Positions 1,412 to 37,505 of a DNA stretch of 43,803 bases are shown here, piece after piece (within the stretch, counting starts at the first letter, position 1; each line of letters opens with the position of its first letter). The translations under genes and the position numbers were made by a program. Location: the NCBI GenBank assembly GCA_040004225.1, contig JBDUBI010000184.1:1-43803 (forward strand), in the 5' to 3' direction. Under the pieces are notes generated by a model, which saw only the letters and a program-made list of their open reading frames with translations, searched no databases and was not told the DNA's origin. The stretch comes from Acidobacteriota bacterium (GTDB lineage Bacteria > Acidobacteriota > Thermoanaerobaculia > UBA5066 > Gp7-AA6).

Positions 1412-4400
1412 ATGAGCTCCGAGACGATCGAAGGTTATCGGCTCGCGCCTCAGCAGAGCCGCCTCTGGTCTTTTCAAGAAGAGGACGGCGCGGCGGCCTA
1501 TCGAGCCCGCGCTCGAGTCGCGATAGATGGGCCCGTGGATGCGGGACGCCTGCGCCGGGCGCTCGACTCGGTCGTGCGGCGGCACGAGATCCTCCGCACG
1601 ACCTTCCGCCGTCTCGCCGGGATGCACGCGCCGCTGCAGGTGGTCAACGAGCTCCTTCCGATCGCGTTTGCAGCCGGCTCGGAAGCTCCGACGCCGATCG
1701 ATCCCGAAGCCGGTCCCGTTCTCGTTGCCTCGCTCGAGAGACGTTCCGCGGAGGCGAGCGAGTTGTTCCTGGAGCTTCCGTCGCTCTGTGCCGACCGCTC
1801 GACTCTCGAACGACTCGTTTTCGAGCTCGGCGTCCTCTACGAAGACCCGGGCGCCGAAGGGAGCCTCGGCGACATCCTCCAATACGCGGATGTAACCGAG
1901 TGGCTCCTCGAGCTCGGGCAGAAAACCGAGTCGGCGCCCGGGATCGAATACTGGCGCGGCCTGGACTTGTCTGCCGTCGGAGCGCTCGCCCTGCCCTTCG
2001 AGGAGGTTCCGGGGCACGCGGCGCGCTTCGACCCCCGGACTTTCGACGTCCTGGACTCCGCCGCGACGGCAAATCTCGTGGACGGGCTCTGCAGGCATCT
2101 CGACTCCACGCCTCGCACGCTGCTCTTGACCTGCTGGCAGATCTTGCTCGGGCGTCTGGTCGACGATGAGCGGCTCGTCGTCGGATACGAGACGGATGGG
2201 CGGGGGCTGCCGGAGCTCGCGGCGGCGCTCGGTCCCTGCGGGCGCTATCTGCCTCTTGCCGGGAGGGCGGCGGAGGATTCTTCGCTTCGGGTCGCGGTCT
2301 CGCGCGTCGAGGAATCGATCGAGGAGCAGAAGGTCTGGGAAAACGTCTTCGCCTGGAACGCGCAGCTCCCTCCCGGCTCTCCGGAGACCCCCTTCTTCCC
2401 TTTTTCCTTCGACTACGCCGACCGCGTGTCTTTTCCCGGCGGAGACGCGATGTTCCACGTCGGAGACCGGCGCGTGGTCCTGGACCGGTTCAAGGTCCGG
2501 CTCCGGTGCACGCGGAGCGGCGGCGCGCTCGCGGTGGCGCTCGACTACGACGCGAACCGGATCTCCGCCGGCGAGGTGGAGCGGCTCGGCGCGCGGTTCG
2601 AACGGCTGCTCGAGAGCGCGGCGGCCGAACCGGAGAGCGCGGTGCGCGCTTTGGACATCCTGCCGGAGGCGGAAAAGCGGCGCCTCTGGTTCGAGTGGAA
2701 CGACACGCGCCGGAATCTCGATCCGGCGCCGATTCTCGAGCGCTTCGAAGACCTGGCCGCGCGCTTTCCAGAAAGGATCGCCGTCGTGGGAGAGCGCGGG
2801 CGGCTCACCTATTCGGAGTTGAACGCGCAGGCGAATGGGGCCGCCCACGGCCTGCGAGAGGCGGGCGTCGCACCCGACACCATCGTCGGTCTCTGCGTCG
2901 AGCGATCCGTCGAGATGATCGTCGGCGTTCTCGCGATCTGGAAAGCGGGCGGGGCGTATCTCCCCCTGGATCCCTCGCTGCCCGACGGGCGCCTGGCGTT
3001 CCTTCTCGACGATACGAAGACTTCTCTCGTTCTGACGCAGGCGCCGCTCGAAGAACGGTTTTCGGGAACGCGGGCGAAGACGTTGCTTCTCGAGGGGAAA
3101 ACCGGGGGCGCCGCGGCGAACCCGGTGCGCGTCGCGCGGGCAGACCACCTCGCCTACGTGATCTTCACTTCGGGATCGACGGGCCTGCCCAAGGGCGTCG
3201 CGGTCGAGCACCGGCAGGTCGCGAATTACGTCGGCGCCATCCTGGAAGTCCTCTCGCCGGAGCCCGGAGAGGTCTTCGCGACGGTGACGACTCTCGCGGC
3301 CGATCTCGGCAACACCTCCATCTTCGCCTCGCTCGCCTCCGGCGGGACTCTTCGGGTCTTGCCGGAATCCCTCGCAAAGGACGCCGCGGCGCTCGCCGAG
3401 GATTTCGAGGCCGAGCCCGTGGACTATTTGAAGATCGTGCCGTCGCACCTCGGCGCTCTTCTTTCCGTCGCTCGCCCCGAGCGGTTGCTGCCCCGGCGCT
3501 GCCTCGTCCTCGGCGGGGAGGCCGCGAGCTGGGATCTCATCGAACGGGTGAGGGGGCTCGCGCCCGGGTGCACGATCGTGAACCATTACGGGCCGACGGA
3601 GGCGACGGTGGGGGCGGCGGCATTCCGGATCCCATCGGATCTGGCCGGCCCGCGGCCACGGACGGTGCCGATCGGCCGGCCGCTCGCCAACTATCGGGTG
3701 TTCCTTCTCGACACAGCCGGCCGGACGGCTCCGCTCGGCACCTCCGGGGAGCTGCACATCGGGGGCGCCGGGCTCGCGCGCGGGTATCTGAACCGGCCCG
3801 AGCTGACGGAGGCCAGATTTCCGACCGTCGAGATCGCGGGCGAAATGCAGCGGCTCTACAAGACAGGCGACGTGGCGCGGTATCTGCCGAACGGTGACAT
3901 CGAGCTCCTCGGGCGCAACGACGACCAGGTCAAGCTGCACGGCTTCCGAATCGAGCCCGGAGAGATCGAGGCGGCGCTCCGACGCCACCCCGGGGTCCGC
4001 GAAGCCGTCGTCCTGGCGCGCGAGGTCGACGCATCGGCAAGACGTCTCGTCGCCTACGTCGTCCCCGAAGCCGCGGCCGAGGCGCCCGCATCCGCCGAGC
4101 TCCGGCAATTCCTCCGGACGGCATTACCGGAGTTCATGCTGCCGTCTGCGTTCGTCCGGGTGCCCCGAATCCCGTTGACCGCGAATGGGAAGGTTGACCG
4201 TGCGGCGCTTCCGCTTCCCGATCCCGCCCGGCCGGATCACGGTGAGCCTCTCGTTGCTCCGCGAACGTCGAACGAGCGCATTCTCTTCAAGGTCTGGGCG
4301 GACGTCCTGCGTCACGACCGGTTCGGAATCCACGAGAACTTCTTCGACCTCGGCGGAGACTCGATTCTCGGCATTCAGATCGTCGTCGGCGCCGCCCGGG

Positions 4401-36400: not shown

Positions 36401-37505
36401 TCCGCGGGACTCCCTGGAGGCCAAGCTGGCGGCAATCTGGGAGGAGGTCCTCGGGGTCTCGGGCATCGGCGTTTTCGACGACTACTTTGACATGGGCGGG
36501 CATTCTCTGCTGGCGGCCTTGCTGTTCTCGCGGATCGGCGAATCTCTGGAACGCCATTTGCCGCTCGCGACGATCTTCGAGGCCCCGACGATCTCCCAGC
36601 TAGCCCGAAAGTTGCGCGAGGAAGGCTGGAGCCCCCCCGATTCCTCCCTCGTCATGATCCAGCGAGGAGTCGCCGGACGCGCCCCCCTCTTCTGCGTGCC
36701 AGGTGTCGGAGGGAACATCGTCGGGTACGTGGATCTGGCCCGAGAGCTGGGCGTCGACCAGCCGGTCTATGGGTTGCAGGCTCGGGGGCTGGACGGAAAG
36801 CGCGAACCCTTCACGTGCGTCGAGGACATGGCGCGCCACTACATCACCGAGATGCTCGCGCTGTTCCCCAACGGGCCTTTCCTGCTGGCGGGAGCCTCCT
36901 TTGGGGGGAGGGTCGCCTTCGAGATGGCTCGGCAACTCGACCAGTCAGGCCATGGCGTGGCTCTGGTCGCCCTGTTCGACGCGTTCGCCCCGAGGACGGC
37001 TTACTCGCCGGCCGGGGTCTCGCGAAGACGTCTCAGGAGGTCTGTCGAGCGGATCGCGTACCACGGGAAGAATCTGCTCTTTGGCTCTCACCGAGTCCGC
37101 TATGTGGCCCGAAAATCTCGCACTCTTCAGCGCCGGATTCGGAGCAGGCTCTGGCGAATGGTCTACAAGTTCTATCGAAAGATCTCGCGACCGCTGCCTC
37201 TCGTGTTGCAGGACGTGCGGGAAGCCGGATACCTCGCGAATCGGGAGTACGCGCCCGGCCCCTATCCTGGCAAAGTGACCCTGTTCCGGGCGACGGTCCG
37301 GTCCCTGGCGGATTCCGAAACCGCGGATATGGGCTGGAGGCAGCTGGCGCAGGGCGGAGTGGAGATTCGAGCGGTATCCGGCGACCACGTCGACATGTTG
37401 ATCCGGCCGCAGGTCGCGTTTCTGGCCGGGCAGCTTCACGAATGCATGGATGCCGCTCTCGCATCGCCCTCCCGGGAAGAGGGGTTGCGGACTCCGGGGT
37501 CATAA
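33411..37505 (+). CDS. Terminal NRPS module C-A-T-TE; predicted Asn
   Basis: '[14 protein letters not shown]', 'HHIVADGWS', '[17 protein letters not shown]', '[11 protein letters not shown]'; code DLTKVGEVGK, an Asn-type code. '[38 protein letters not shown]', 'NGKVDR'. T domain: '[14 protein letters not shown]'. TE domain: 'FCVPGVGGN', 'GASFGG' (36890), 'VSGDHVDML'. Confidence 0.93.
   Translation: [1364 protein letters not shown]

What the first reader, a model, noticed from the sequence alone, without database searches (positions are those of the whole stretch)
1412..37505. Non-collinear hybrid NRPS/PKS assembly line with split modules and a beta-amino-forming PKS step
Ten co-directional genes carry 6 A domains, 1 acyl-activating domain, 8 carrier domains, 6 C domains (one non-canonical), 1 E, 1 KS-AT, 1 aminotransferase, 1 MT, 1 LLM and 1 TE.

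Codes read by eye at GrsA positions 235-331 are:
- DLTKVGHVGK (Asp, plus an E domain)
- DFWNIGMVHK (Thr)
- DLFNNALTYK (Ala)
- DAFWIGGTFK (Val, on a stand-alone A-T)
- DILQLGMIWK (Gly, with an embedded MT)
- DLTKVGEVGK (Asn, plus the TE)

Gene order cannot be the assembly order. The loading protein (7859) and the KS-containing megasynthase (24203) are 13 kb apart. The E-domain protein is separated from its DCL partner by four genes.

One self-consistent order is: acyl-ACP, then KS/AMT beta-amino unit-(Me)Gly, then D-Asp, then Thr-Ala, then Val (via trans C + A-T), then Asn-TE.

Start/stop overlaps at 10912, 13724, 22275 and 24203 (ATGA or GTGA) argue for tight co-translation. No transporter, regulator, MbtH-like or type II TE gene is visible in the window.
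Basis: partly seen in the sequence, partly recalled or inferred. Interest (0 to 1): 0.75.

Follow-up and report, generated by a model that had tools for sequence, protein, structure and literature searches.

The report
Orphan hybrid peptide-polyketide gene cluster

Summary
Ten co-directional genes (1412-37505) carry the stated NRPS/PKS domains, all six specificity codes are correct, and the four start/stop overlaps are real; there is a fifth at 12150.

- The "loading protein" is not a fatty-acid loader. Its A domain resembles oxalate-CoA ligase and is fused to a MupA/PuwE-type monooxygenase.
- In 35 of 59 related metagenomic loci, this type of KS-AT-ACP-aminotransferase module is preceded by a stand-alone A-T with no C domain; in 12 of these a CmlA-like gene sits just upstream. 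So the adjacent Val A-T most likely primes the KS, giving a 3,4-diamino acid rather than a beta-amino fatty acid.
- The His-less "non-canonical C" belongs to a family always found at protein N-termini. It behaves like an interface domain served in trans by a canonical C, which fits the stand-alone C here.

The cluster combines three recurrent cassettes. A nearly collinear order is possible, but one condensation catalyst is missing, so the full order is unresolved. I rate it a new variant of a known kind, of moderate interest.

The parts
1412..5923 (+). g1, an NRPS with four domains: interface-like C* (aa 1-430, motif LPSLCADR in place of HHxxxDG), A(Asp, DLTKVGHVGK), T (GGDS) and E
   Evidence: Pfam. 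Motifs. Code. C* family.
5926..7782 (+). g2, a glutamine-dependent asparagine-synthase-like amidotransferase with N-terminal MCGICG
   Evidence: Pfam. TIGR01536 scores 464.8 bits against a cutoff of 267. Start codon. Conserved next to g3 in L002-L004, L081 and L167-L169.
7859..10915 (+). g3, a starter module: oxalate-CoA-ligase-like A domain, T (GGDS), and a MupA/Atu3671-family FMN-dependent monooxygenase (LLM)
   Evidence: TIGR04020, 438.6 bits. PDB 5ie0 at 2e-107 and PuwE 6ket at 1e-103. Pocket residues.
10912..12153 (+). g4, a family III CoA-transferase of the formyl-CoA/oxalate and succinate-hydroxymethylglutarate type
12150..13727 (+). g5, a stand-alone canonical LCL-type C domain (HHIVTDG) with a TTG start overlapping the g4 stop
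   Evidence: Synteny.
13724..20209 (+). g6, a two-module NRPS: DCL-type C (QHLLLDR), A(Thr), T, LCL C, A(Ala), T
20683..22278 (+). g7, a CmlA-like diiron beta-hydroxylase (CmlA_N plus metallo-beta-lactamase fold, with HAHQDH)
   Evidence: and the sequence. Sits upstream of the A-T and KS in 12 related loci.
22275..24206 (+). g8, a stand-alone A(Val, DAFWIGGTFK)-T (GGSS). Inferred primer of the KS.
24203..33373 (+). g9, a PKS-NRPS hybrid: KS (QSGCSTS, HGTGT, NVGH), AT (GHSIG...HAFH, malonyl), ACP, aminotransferase, C, A(Gly) with inserted methyltransferase, T (GADS)
33411..37505 (+). g10, the terminating NRPS: LCL C, A(Asn, DLTKVGEVGK), T, TE (GASFG)
38104..39210 (+). GT2-family glycosyltransferase. 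A possible tailoring gene; membership of the cluster is uncertain.
42466..43296 (+). Sfp/HetI-type 4'-phosphopantetheinyl transferase. PPTase genes also accompany many relatives of the g7-g9 cassette.

Best explanation
The window is essentially one whole contig. It carries an orphan hybrid NRPS-PKS cluster of about 36-42 kb. The organism is most likely an uncultured Thermoanaerobaculia (Acidobacteriota); that assignment is inferred from the nearest relatives.

**Three recurrent cassettes**

1. **Capping cassette, g2-g5.** An oxalate-CoA-ligase-like A domain loads a small polar acid, not a fatty acid, onto its T domain. The fused MupA/PuwE-type monooxygenase probably alpha-hydroxylates that acyl group. 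The AsnB-like enzyme probably amidates a free carboxylate. The role of the CoA-transferase is unknown. The stand-alone LCL C (g5) passes the cap to the first amino acid.
2. **Peptide core, g1 + g6.** g1 is an interface-like C*, then A(Asp)-T-E. Its missing condensation activity is supplied in trans by g5. The E domain gives D-Asp, which the DCL of g6 extends with Thr and Ala.
3. **Amino-acid-primed PKS cassette, g7-g9, with the g10 terminator.** Val loaded on the stand-alone A-T (g8) is beta-hydroxylated by the CmlA-like enzyme (g7). It then primes the KS of g9. One malonyl extension and transamination of the beta-keto group give a 3,4-diamino-(5-hydroxy)-5-methylhexanoyl unit. This unit is joined to N-methyl-Gly and then to Asn, and the TE (g10) releases the product.

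**Favoured overall order.** The nearly collinear order is g3 -> g5/g1 -> g6 -> g8 -> g9 -> g10.

**Shown:** the domains, the specificity codes and the synteny rules. **Inferred:** every chemical step and the Ala-to-Val junction, for which no dedicated C domain exists.
For: **Domains and codes.**

**Likely organism.** The nearest relatives are Thermoanaerobaculia MAGs at 55-79% amino-acid identity.

**g3 feeds g5.**
- The cassette AsnB / A-T-LLM / CoA-transferase / C is conserved in L002-L004, L081, L167 and L168; L001 has it without an adjacent AsnB. In L169 the contig ends inside the CoA-transferase gene, so the C is not visible.
- In L002 and L003 the cassette stands alone.
- In at least 10 other loci, A-T loaders of this type are followed directly by an LCL-type C. 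The T motif is GGDS in 19 of 23 loaders.

**g5 pairs with g1.**
- A canonical LCL immediately precedes a C*-A protein in L081, L168, L166 and twice in L165.
- Family members are built I-A-T-C (P0183, P0243) or I-A-T-C-TauD (P0272).
- C* always sits at the protein N-terminus, with LP[SA]LCAD in place of HHxxxDG.
- The published precedent is MxgA (..C-Ox) with MxgB (I-A-PCP) (PMC13638107).

**g8 primes g9.**
- 35 of 59 informative loci have a C-less A-T just upstream of the KS, 12 of them with a CmlA-like gene. These T domains have non-His motifs, as g8 does.
- The genes overlap in the window.
- The closest relative of the right half, L085, keeps the order g6 | CmlA | A-T | g9 | g10.

**g1 feeds g6.** g1 has a genuine E domain, and the first C of g6 is DCL-type.

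**Extension chemistry.** The AT carries the malonyl motif HAFH. There is no KR or DH, and an aminotransferase follows the ACP.

**LLM.** It is closest to the PuwE oxygenase domain, which is proposed to help form the 3-amino-2-hydroxy acyl unit of puwainaphycin (PMC4219810).
Against: - **One link too few.** Eight units need seven links, but only five canonical C domains and one KS are present. If g5 serves Asp, nothing is left to join Ala to Val. Then g5 would have to act twice, or C* would have to be catalytic (note).
- **No TauD partner in the window.** Relatives L001, L167 and L165 have a TauD hydroxylase next to the C*-A protein. The window has none, and no remnant in bases 1-1411. C* therefore has no visible hydroxylase partner here.
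- **The starter acid is unknown.** Two of the three oxalate-contacting residues of plant AAE3 are replaced (S289A, H319Q).
- **Interface-domain function is unclear.** In the myxoglucamide system the interface domain was dispensable in vitro.
- **Odd carrier domain.** The terminal T of g9 (GADS) resembles T domains that precede E domains, not those that precede LCL domains.
- **No product has been observed.**
Confidence: 0.45

Rival explanations
1. Non-collinear order with the Val-primed chain as the start. (beta-OH)Val on g8 -> g9 (diamino unit, Sar) -> g5/g1 (D-Asp) -> g6 (Thr, Ala) -> g10 (Asn, TE). The g3 cassette then supplies an alternative starter for g5, or a cap for a free amine.
For: - It uses all five canonical C domains and the KS, with no gap in the main chain.
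- It respects A-T -> KS, LCL | C*-A-T and E -> DCL.
- g6-like is directly followed by g10-like in L081.
- The last T of g6 is GGHS, the type that normally feeds an LCL. The T of g9 is atypical.
- g9 and g6 both end in the first half of a T-LCL linker, and two proteins (g5, g10) start with an LCL.
Against: - It makes the conserved loader g3 redundant or competing, although Aox-T -> LCL is the rule elsewhere.
- The chain must jump from operon 2 to operon 1 and back.
- In L085 the g9-like and g10-like reading frames overlap at their junction, which favours g9 -> g10.
Confidence: 0.28
2. The His-less C* of g1 is a working condensation domain, and g5 serves Val. Two orders follow: g3 -> g5/g8 -> g9 -> C*/g1 -> g6 -> g10, or g3 -> C*/g1 -> g6 -> g5/g8 -> g9 -> g10. 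In both, every module is used once.
For: - It balances the link count (seven catalysts for seven links).
- The Asp of HHxxxDG is invariant across the C* family.
- C* best matches positions 682-1123 of the PvdL-like model PRK05691. From memory, that is the first C after PvdL's acyl-ligase-T module.
Against: - Both His residues are replaced throughout a large family.
- That family is regularly preceded by a canonical LCL in trans or at the upstream protein's C-terminus.
- Interface domains are described as lacking the catalytic motif.
- g8-type A-T proteins work without any C in 35 loci.
Confidence: 0.12
3. One reading: acyl-ACP (g3) primes the KS of g9, giving a beta-amino acyl-(Me)Gly. D-Asp, Thr-Ala, Val (through the trans C g5 and g8) and Asn-TE follow.
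For: - It is formally self-consistent if C* is active.
- KS-AT-ACP-AMT-C-A-T is the architecture of MycA, PuwE and (from memory) McyE, which extend acyl chains.
- The T of g3 carries an ACP-like GGDS motif.
Against: - The KS clade is fed by NRPS A-T or C-A-T modules in 43 of 59 loci, and never visibly by an Aox-T-LLM protein.
- g8 overlaps g9.
- g3-type loaders feed LCL domains.
- g5 co-occurs with g3 and with C*-A proteins, not with g8-type proteins.
- The T of g8 (GGSS) is not the type that normally precedes an LCL.
Confidence: 0.05
4. The cluster makes two separate products or is partly non-functional. One line is a capped D-Asp-Thr-Ala(-Asn) peptide, as in L001-type clusters. The other is a small Val-derived diamino-acid peptide, as in the minimal g7-g9-type clusters. 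They share or compete for the single TE protein.
For: - Both sub-lines exist on their own elsewhere: L001, L167 and L081 for the first; L086, L088 and L122 for the second.
- The window has two starter-type modules without a C, and one TE.
Against: - The arrangement g6 | g7 g8 g9 | g10 is conserved in L085 at 62-83% identity, which suggests one selected unit.
- All reading frames are intact and tightly coupled.
Confidence: 0.1

Closest known systems
Myxoglucamide synthetase MxgA/MxgB/MxgE (Cystobacterineae sp. MCy9003; PMC13638107)
   Same: - An acyl-activating domain and carrier are followed by a canonical LCL that condenses onto an amino acid held by a separate protein.
- That protein begins with a His-less interface domain (I-A-PCP).
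- It is a hybrid NRPS/PKS in which an amino acid is extended by a PKS module.
- An FMN-dependent monooxygenase performs alpha-oxidation.
   Different: - Mxg uses a FAAL and a fatty acid; here the loader is oxalate-CoA-ligase-like.
- The Mxg hydroxylase is an alpha-KG dioxygenase fused after the C. The window has no TauD-type enzyme, although relatives L001, L167 and L165 do.
- Here the C is a free-standing protein and the monooxygenase is fused to the loader.
- Mxg has no aminotransferase domain.
MycA/ItuA (iturin family), PuwE (puwainaphycin) and McyE (microcystin): KS-(AT)-ACP-aminotransferase-C-A-T modules
   Same: - The same domain order; for McyE this is from memory.
- A beta-keto thioester is converted to a beta-amino thioester and passed to an NRPS module.
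- The LLM of g3 is closest in the PDB to the PuwE oxygenase domain (1e-103).
   Different: - Those KS domains extend fatty-acyl or polyketide chains delivered by FAAL-ACP or upstream PKS modules.
- Here and in 35 related loci the donor is a C-less amino-acid A-T. The predicted product is a vicinal (3,4-) diamino acid, not a beta-amino fatty acid.
- The oxygenase is not in the PKS protein.
CmlA/CmlP of chloramphenicol biosynthesis
   Same: A diiron hydroxylase with a CmlA_N domain and a metallo-beta-lactamase fold is encoded next to an A-T protein whose tethered amino acid it would beta-hydroxylate. The CmlA/CmlP mechanism is cited from memory.
   Different: - The predicted substrate is Val (a tertiary C-H), not p-aminophenylalanine.
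- The A-T hands on to a KS rather than to a reductase.
Plant and yeast oxalyl-CoA synthetase AAE3 (PDB 5ie0, 6qjz), and bacterial stand-alone relatives next to PanE-like reductase genes
   Same: It is the best sequence match of the g3 A domain (2e-107). A formyl-CoA/oxalate-type CoA-transferase is encoded next to it.
   Different: - g3 is fused to T and LLM domains, so it loads a carrier rather than CoA.
- Pocket residues differ. g3 has A-H-S-A-G-M-Q, AtAAE3 has V-H-C-S-A-M-H, and 63 bacterial relatives have I-H-S-S-G-M-Q.
- The Ser and His that contact oxalate are replaced.
OxyD (oxytetracycline malonamate starter) and DdaH (dapdiamide fumaramoyl); both cited from memory
   Same: An AsnB-type, glutamine-dependent amidotransferase turns the free carboxylate of a dicarboxylic starter or cap into a carboxamide.
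   Different: No sequence-level or biochemical link was tested here. The role of g2 is inferred only from its conserved position next to g3.

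Membership tests
Hybrid type I NRPS-PKS biosynthetic gene cluster | A, T and C domains, a KS-AT-ACP module, a releasing TE and a PPTase, co-localised and co-oriented | tested here: met
   Pfam and NCBIfam. Catalytic motifs are present.
Iturin/puwainaphycin-type beta-amino fatty acid lipopeptide synthetase | Fatty acid activation by a FAAL or acyl ligase plus ACP that primes the KS | tested here: not met
   The only acyl-type A domain is oxalate-CoA-ligase-like. The KS clade is preceded by amino-acid A-T or C-A-T modules in 43 of 59 loci.
Iturin/puwainaphycin-type beta-amino fatty acid lipopeptide synthetase | KS-(AT)-ACP-aminotransferase-C-A-T domain order | tested here: met
   The aminotransferase is of the glutamate-1-semialdehyde-aminomutase type.
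Interface (I) domain split module (Reitz 2019; MxgB) | Condensation fold lacking the HHxxxDG histidines | tested here: met
   LPSLCADR aligns with HHxxxDG. The replacement is conserved in L001, L081, L167 and more than 20 family members.
Interface (I) domain split module (Reitz 2019; MxgB) | Located at a protein N-terminus before A-T, with a canonical LCL supplied by the upstream or a separate protein | tested here: met
   Literature description.
Interface (I) domain split module (Reitz 2019; MxgB) | Partner alpha-KG/TauD-type beta-hydroxylase encoded alongside | tested here: not met
   No TauD gene or remnant in the window. TauD is present next to homologues in L001, L167, L165 and fused in P0272.
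Interface (I) domain split module (Reitz 2019; MxgB) | Phylogenetic placement within the published I-domain clade | not tested
MupA/Atu3671 family FMN-dependent luciferase-like monooxygenase (TIGR04020) | Score above the curated cutoff of the family model | tested here: met
   438.6 bits against a cutoff of 244.45, over residues 667-1003 of g3.
Oxalate-CoA ligase (AAE3 type) | Oxalate-contacting residues Ser289 and His319 (AtAAE3 numbering) | tested here: not met
   They are replaced by Ala and Gln (alignment; residue list from PMC8905533).
CmlA-type diiron beta-hydroxylase with a carrier-tethered substrate | CmlA_N domain plus metallo-beta-lactamase fold with HxHxDH, encoded next to an A-T | tested here: met
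   CmlA_N at 2.5e-81. HAHQDH is in the translated sequence. The stop/start overlaps g8.
   A nearly collinear order (g3, g5/g1, g6, g8, g9, g10) fits the synteny rules but lacks a C for the Ala-to-Val junction. The best gap-free order is non-collinear.

The most novel reading that the evidence does not exclude
The cluster would combine two building-block routes that I did not find described.

1. An amino-acid-primed KS-AT-ACP-aminotransferase cassette, often with a CmlA-like hydroxylase, that turns a carrier-bound amino acid into a (hydroxylated) vicinal 3,4-diamino acid. It is widespread in soil metagenomes.
2. A four-gene capping cassette: an oxalate-ligase-like A-T fused to an alpha-hydroxylating LLM, a family III CoA-transferase, an AsnB-type amidotransferase and a free C. 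It would install a small hydroxylated, amidated dicarboxylate cap. In some genomes it stands alone next to a TonB-dependent receptor, which hints at a metallophore.
Probability: 0.35. Interest if true: 0.65.

Novelty: new variant of a known kind. Interest (0 to 1): 0.45.

Why it matters
I know of no characterised natural products from Thermoanaerobaculia (my own knowledge; not searched here).

If the inferred logic is right, the cluster and its dozens of metagenomic relatives encode two unexplored ways of making unusual peptide building blocks:
- a vicinal diamino acid made from an amino acid by a PKS-aminotransferase module;
- a small polar cap made by an oxalate-ligase-like loader with a fused monooxygenase.

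The cluster also offers a natural test case for what His-less interface domains do when no hydroxylase partner is present. It poses a clear, testable puzzle: two starter modules, one TE, and one condensation domain too few.

Otherwise it is one more orphan NRPS/PKS cluster from a metagenome, of which very many exist.

Tried and rejected
- **Exact look-up of a window protein.** It returned nothing. The window's own contig is present in the protein database only as a 43,803-bp record without names.
- **MbtH-like gene.** ORF lists of the two large intergenic gaps and a six-frame signature scan found none.
- **RNA and signals.** Rfam, tRNA and promoter/terminator scans of the window and of the g6/g7 gap gave nothing useful.
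- **TauD remnant upstream of g1.** tblastn with the TauD proteins of L001 and L167 found none.
- **Using T-domain motifs (GGHS versus GGDS) to fix the order.**
  - The motifs helped for g8.
  - They showed that GGDS is normal for this loader family.
  - They did not separate the two leading global orders.
  - My automated extraction of the terminal T of g9-like proteins was unreliable and is not used.
- **Substrate of the g3 A domain from the genomic context of stand-alone relatives.** A PanE/ApbA-like reductase follows the ligase in L047 and L051. This fits oxalyl-CoA metabolism, but that link rests on my memory of the literature. The LLM-fused subfamily has a different pocket, so oxalate itself is not supported for g3.
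- **Literature searches.** Searches for an A-T-LLM loader, and for an amino-acid-primed KS-aminotransferase giving diamino acids, found no description.
- **AsnB as mere asparagine supply for the Asn module.** I judged this less likely, because AsnB stays next to g3 in cassettes that stand alone.
- **Not possible here.** Comparison against MIBiG, NaPDoS and antiSMASH.

Full report
**Observation**

The window is 63-69% G+C. It carries ten co-directional genes between 1412 and 37505. Pfam and NCBIfam give these architectures:

| Gene | Coordinates | Architecture |
|---|---|---|
| g1 | 1412-5923 | C-like, A, T, E |
| g2 | 5926-7782 | asparagine-synthase-like amidotransferase (N-terminal MCGICG) |
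| g3 | 7859-10915 | acyl-CoA-ligase-type A, T, luciferase-like monooxygenase |
| g4 | 10912-12153 | family III CoA-transferase |
| g5 | 12150-13727 | stand-alone C |
| g6 | 13724-20209 | C-A-T-C-A-T |
| g7 | 20683-22278 | CmlA-like diiron hydroxylase |
| g8 | 22275-24206 | A-T |
| g9 | 24203-33373 | KS-AT-ACP-aminotransferase-C-A(MT)-T |
| g10 | 33411-37505 | C-A-T-TE |

The four start/stop overlaps are real, and a fifth (TTGA) lies at 12150. No MbtH-like ORF exists.

It also stopped before a GT2 glycosyltransferase (38104-39210) and an Sfp/HetI-type PPTase (42466-43296).

**Origin**

The window is a whole 43,803-bp contig. Its closest relatives are contigs of Thermoanaerobaculia/Acidobacteriota MAGs at 55-79% amino-acid identity. 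That lineage is the likely source; this is an inference.

**The starter protein g3 is not a fatty-acid loader**

- Its A domain matches plant oxalate-CoA ligase AAE3 best (PDB 5ie0, 2e-107).
- Its C-terminal domain matches the PuwE oxygenase (6ket, 1e-103) and passes the MupA/Atu3671 model TIGR04020.
- g4 is closest to formyl-CoA/oxalate and succinate-hydroxymethylglutarate CoA-transferases.
- Two of the three oxalate-contacting residues of AAE3 are replaced in g3: S289A and H319Q.
- Sixty-three bacterial relatives carry the pocket signature I-H-S-S-G-M-Q. The monooxygenase-fused subfamily carries A/T-H-S-A-G-M-Q/Y.

I infer a small polar acid other than oxalate, one with an alpha-hydrogen that the monooxygenase can hydroxylate. 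The PuwE oxygenase domain is proposed to help form the 3-amino-2-hydroxy acyl unit of puwainaphycin (PMC4219810).

**A conserved capping cassette**

The cassette AsnB / A-T-LLM / CoA-transferase / C recurs in L002-L004, L081, L167 and L168. L001 has it without an adjacent AsnB. In L169 the contig ends inside the CoA-transferase gene, so the C is not visible. In L002 and L003 the cassette stands alone, directly downstream of a TonB-dependent receptor gene.

In at least ten other loci, loaders of this A-T type are followed directly by an LCL-type C. Their T motif is GGDS in 19 of 23 cases, as in g3. The donor of g5 is therefore most likely the T domain of g3.

**The "non-canonical C" of g1**

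LPSLCADR replaces HHxxxDG. This is not decay. An exhaustive profile-free search found a large family of such domains. They share three features:
- they sit at protein N-termini;
- they start M..(I/V)EG(F/Y)RLSPQQ;
- they carry LP[SA]LCAD.

A canonical LCL immediately precedes them. It is a stand-alone protein in L081, L166 and L168, and the C-terminal domain of the upstream protein in L165, twice. Family members are built I-A-T-C (P0183, P0243) or I-A-T-C-TauD (P0272). TauD genes flank the g1 homologues in L001, L167 and L165.

This is the architecture published for MxgA (...C-Ox) and MxgB (I-A-PCP). There the canonical C condenses, and the His-less interface domain is linked to beta-hydroxylation (PMC13638107).

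I conclude that g5 and g1 form a split module. The window itself has no TauD gene or remnant, so the interface-like domain has no visible partner here.

**What primes the KS**

A scan of metagenome contigs returned 80 loci with relatives of the g9 KS-AT-ACP-aminotransferase region at 43-69% identity (best aligned segment). In 59 of them the upstream sequence is visible:

| Upstream of the KS | Loci |
|---|---|
| C-less A-T (12 of these with a CmlA-like gene just before it) | 35 |
| Full C-A-T module | 8 |
| No A domain within 900 nt | 13 |
| A-T present, further upstream not visible | 3 |

Many of these are small self-contained clusters that end in a TE. The T domains of the C-less A-T proteins have non-His motifs (GGDS, GGTS, GGNS, GGSS), as g8 does.

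The closest relative of the right half, L085, keeps the order g6 | CmlA | A-T | g9 | g10 at 62-83% identity. In the window, g7/g8 and g8/g9 overlap by four bases.

The KS is therefore most likely primed by Val, beta-hydroxylated on g8 by g7. The AT carries the malonyl motif HAFH, and there is no KR. The aminotransferase would convert the 4-amino-3-oxo intermediate to a 3,4-diamino acid; this is an inference. The embedded methyltransferase, about 420 residues with VLEIGCGTG and located inside the C-terminal A subdomain, fits N-methylation of Gly; this too is an inference.

**Other links**

g1 has a genuine E domain (HHLAVD, EGHGRE). The first C of g6 begins LSPMQQGILFH. Its best match in the PvdL-like model PRK05691 is positions 3251-3711, which I recall as the C after PvdL's E domain. 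g5 matches the region of an internal LCL, positions 1729-2159. g10, with its TE, is last.

**The overall order**

These rules leave two starter-type modules without a C (g3 and g8) and one TE. Eight units need seven links, but there are only five canonical C domains and one KS (note).

Two orders remain.
- **Nearly collinear, favoured because collinearity is the usual default (my prior):** g3 -> g5/g1 -> g6 -> g8 -> g9 -> g10. It lacks a catalyst for the Ala-to-Val junction.
- **Gap-free but non-collinear:** g8 -> g9 -> g5/g1 -> g6 -> g10. It makes g3 redundant.

Both g6 and g9 end in the first half of a T-LCL linker, and two proteins (g5, g10) start with an LCL. Sequence alone therefore does not decide.

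It has g3 priming the KS and Val entering late through g5.

**Comparison and novelty**

The parts all have precedents:
- MycA, PuwE and (from memory) McyE for the aminotransferase module;
- CmlA/CmlP for the hydroxylase (from memory);
- MxgA/MxgB for the split interface module;
- PvdL-like acyl-ligase starters (from memory);
- OxyD and DdaH for AsnB-type amidation (from memory).

I found no description of an oxalate-ligase-like A-T-LLM loader cassette, nor of an amino-acid-primed KS-aminotransferase cassette. MIBiG could not be queried. I rate the cluster a new variant of a known kind and of moderate interest. It is a genuine orphan cluster with some unusual, recurrent and testable features.

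Noticed in passing
window 39262-40020 (+) and about 39334-40290 (-): The plus-strand ORF here has a non-coding codon-position GC pattern (0.75/0.72/0.50). The minus strand encodes a likely secreted protein. It has a signal-peptide-like start, a Cys-containing globular part, a long Pro/Thr/Ser linker, and a C-terminal hydrophobic helix followed by RR, which resembles a PEP-CTERM sorting signal.
   Followed up: partly
window 1-1411: The 1.4 kb upstream of g1 has no ORF with coding-like codon bias and no Pfam hit. Close relatives (L001, L167) carry a TauD-type dioxygenase gene at this position, overlapping the g1-like gene in L167. No remnant of it is detectable here.
   Followed up: yes
L002 4959-15891 and L003 5333-15900: In two Thermoanaerobaculia/Acidobacteria MAGs, the four-gene cassette AsnB / A-T-LLM / CoA-transferase / C stands alone directly downstream of a TonB-dependent receptor gene. 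No other NRPS gene lies within 10 kb. This hints that the cassette alone makes a small metallophore-like amide.
   Followed up: partly
L086, L088, L089, L091, L096, L122, L124, L131, L140, L146, L150, L160: The minimal relatives of the g7-g9 cassette end with two tandem C-like domains before the TE (C-A-T-C-C-TE). This is an unusual terminus; its role, perhaps cyclisation onto the diamine, is unknown.
   Followed up: no
window 13724-15133 (first C of g6): This DCL-type C domain has QHLLLDR in place of HHxxxDG. The first His is replaced by Gln and the Gly by Arg, while the catalytic second His and the Asp are kept.
   Followed up: no
window 20210-20682: A 473-nt gap between g6 and g7 has slightly lower G+C (0.62) and splits the ten genes into two tightly coupled blocks. 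It contains no Rfam match, no sigma-70-like promoter and no small conserved ORF.
   Followed up: partly
window 40401-42722 (-): A sulfatase domain fused to a long run of TPR repeats is encoded on the opposite strand, between the cluster and the PPTase gene. It has no evident link to the cluster.
   Followed up: no
L047 and L051 (stand-alone ligase relatives of the g3 A domain): The stand-alone ligases, 56-57% identical to the g3 A domain, are followed by a PanE/ApbA-like reductase gene. From memory, this pairing fits oxalyl-CoA formation and reduction in oxalate assimilation.
   Followed up: partly
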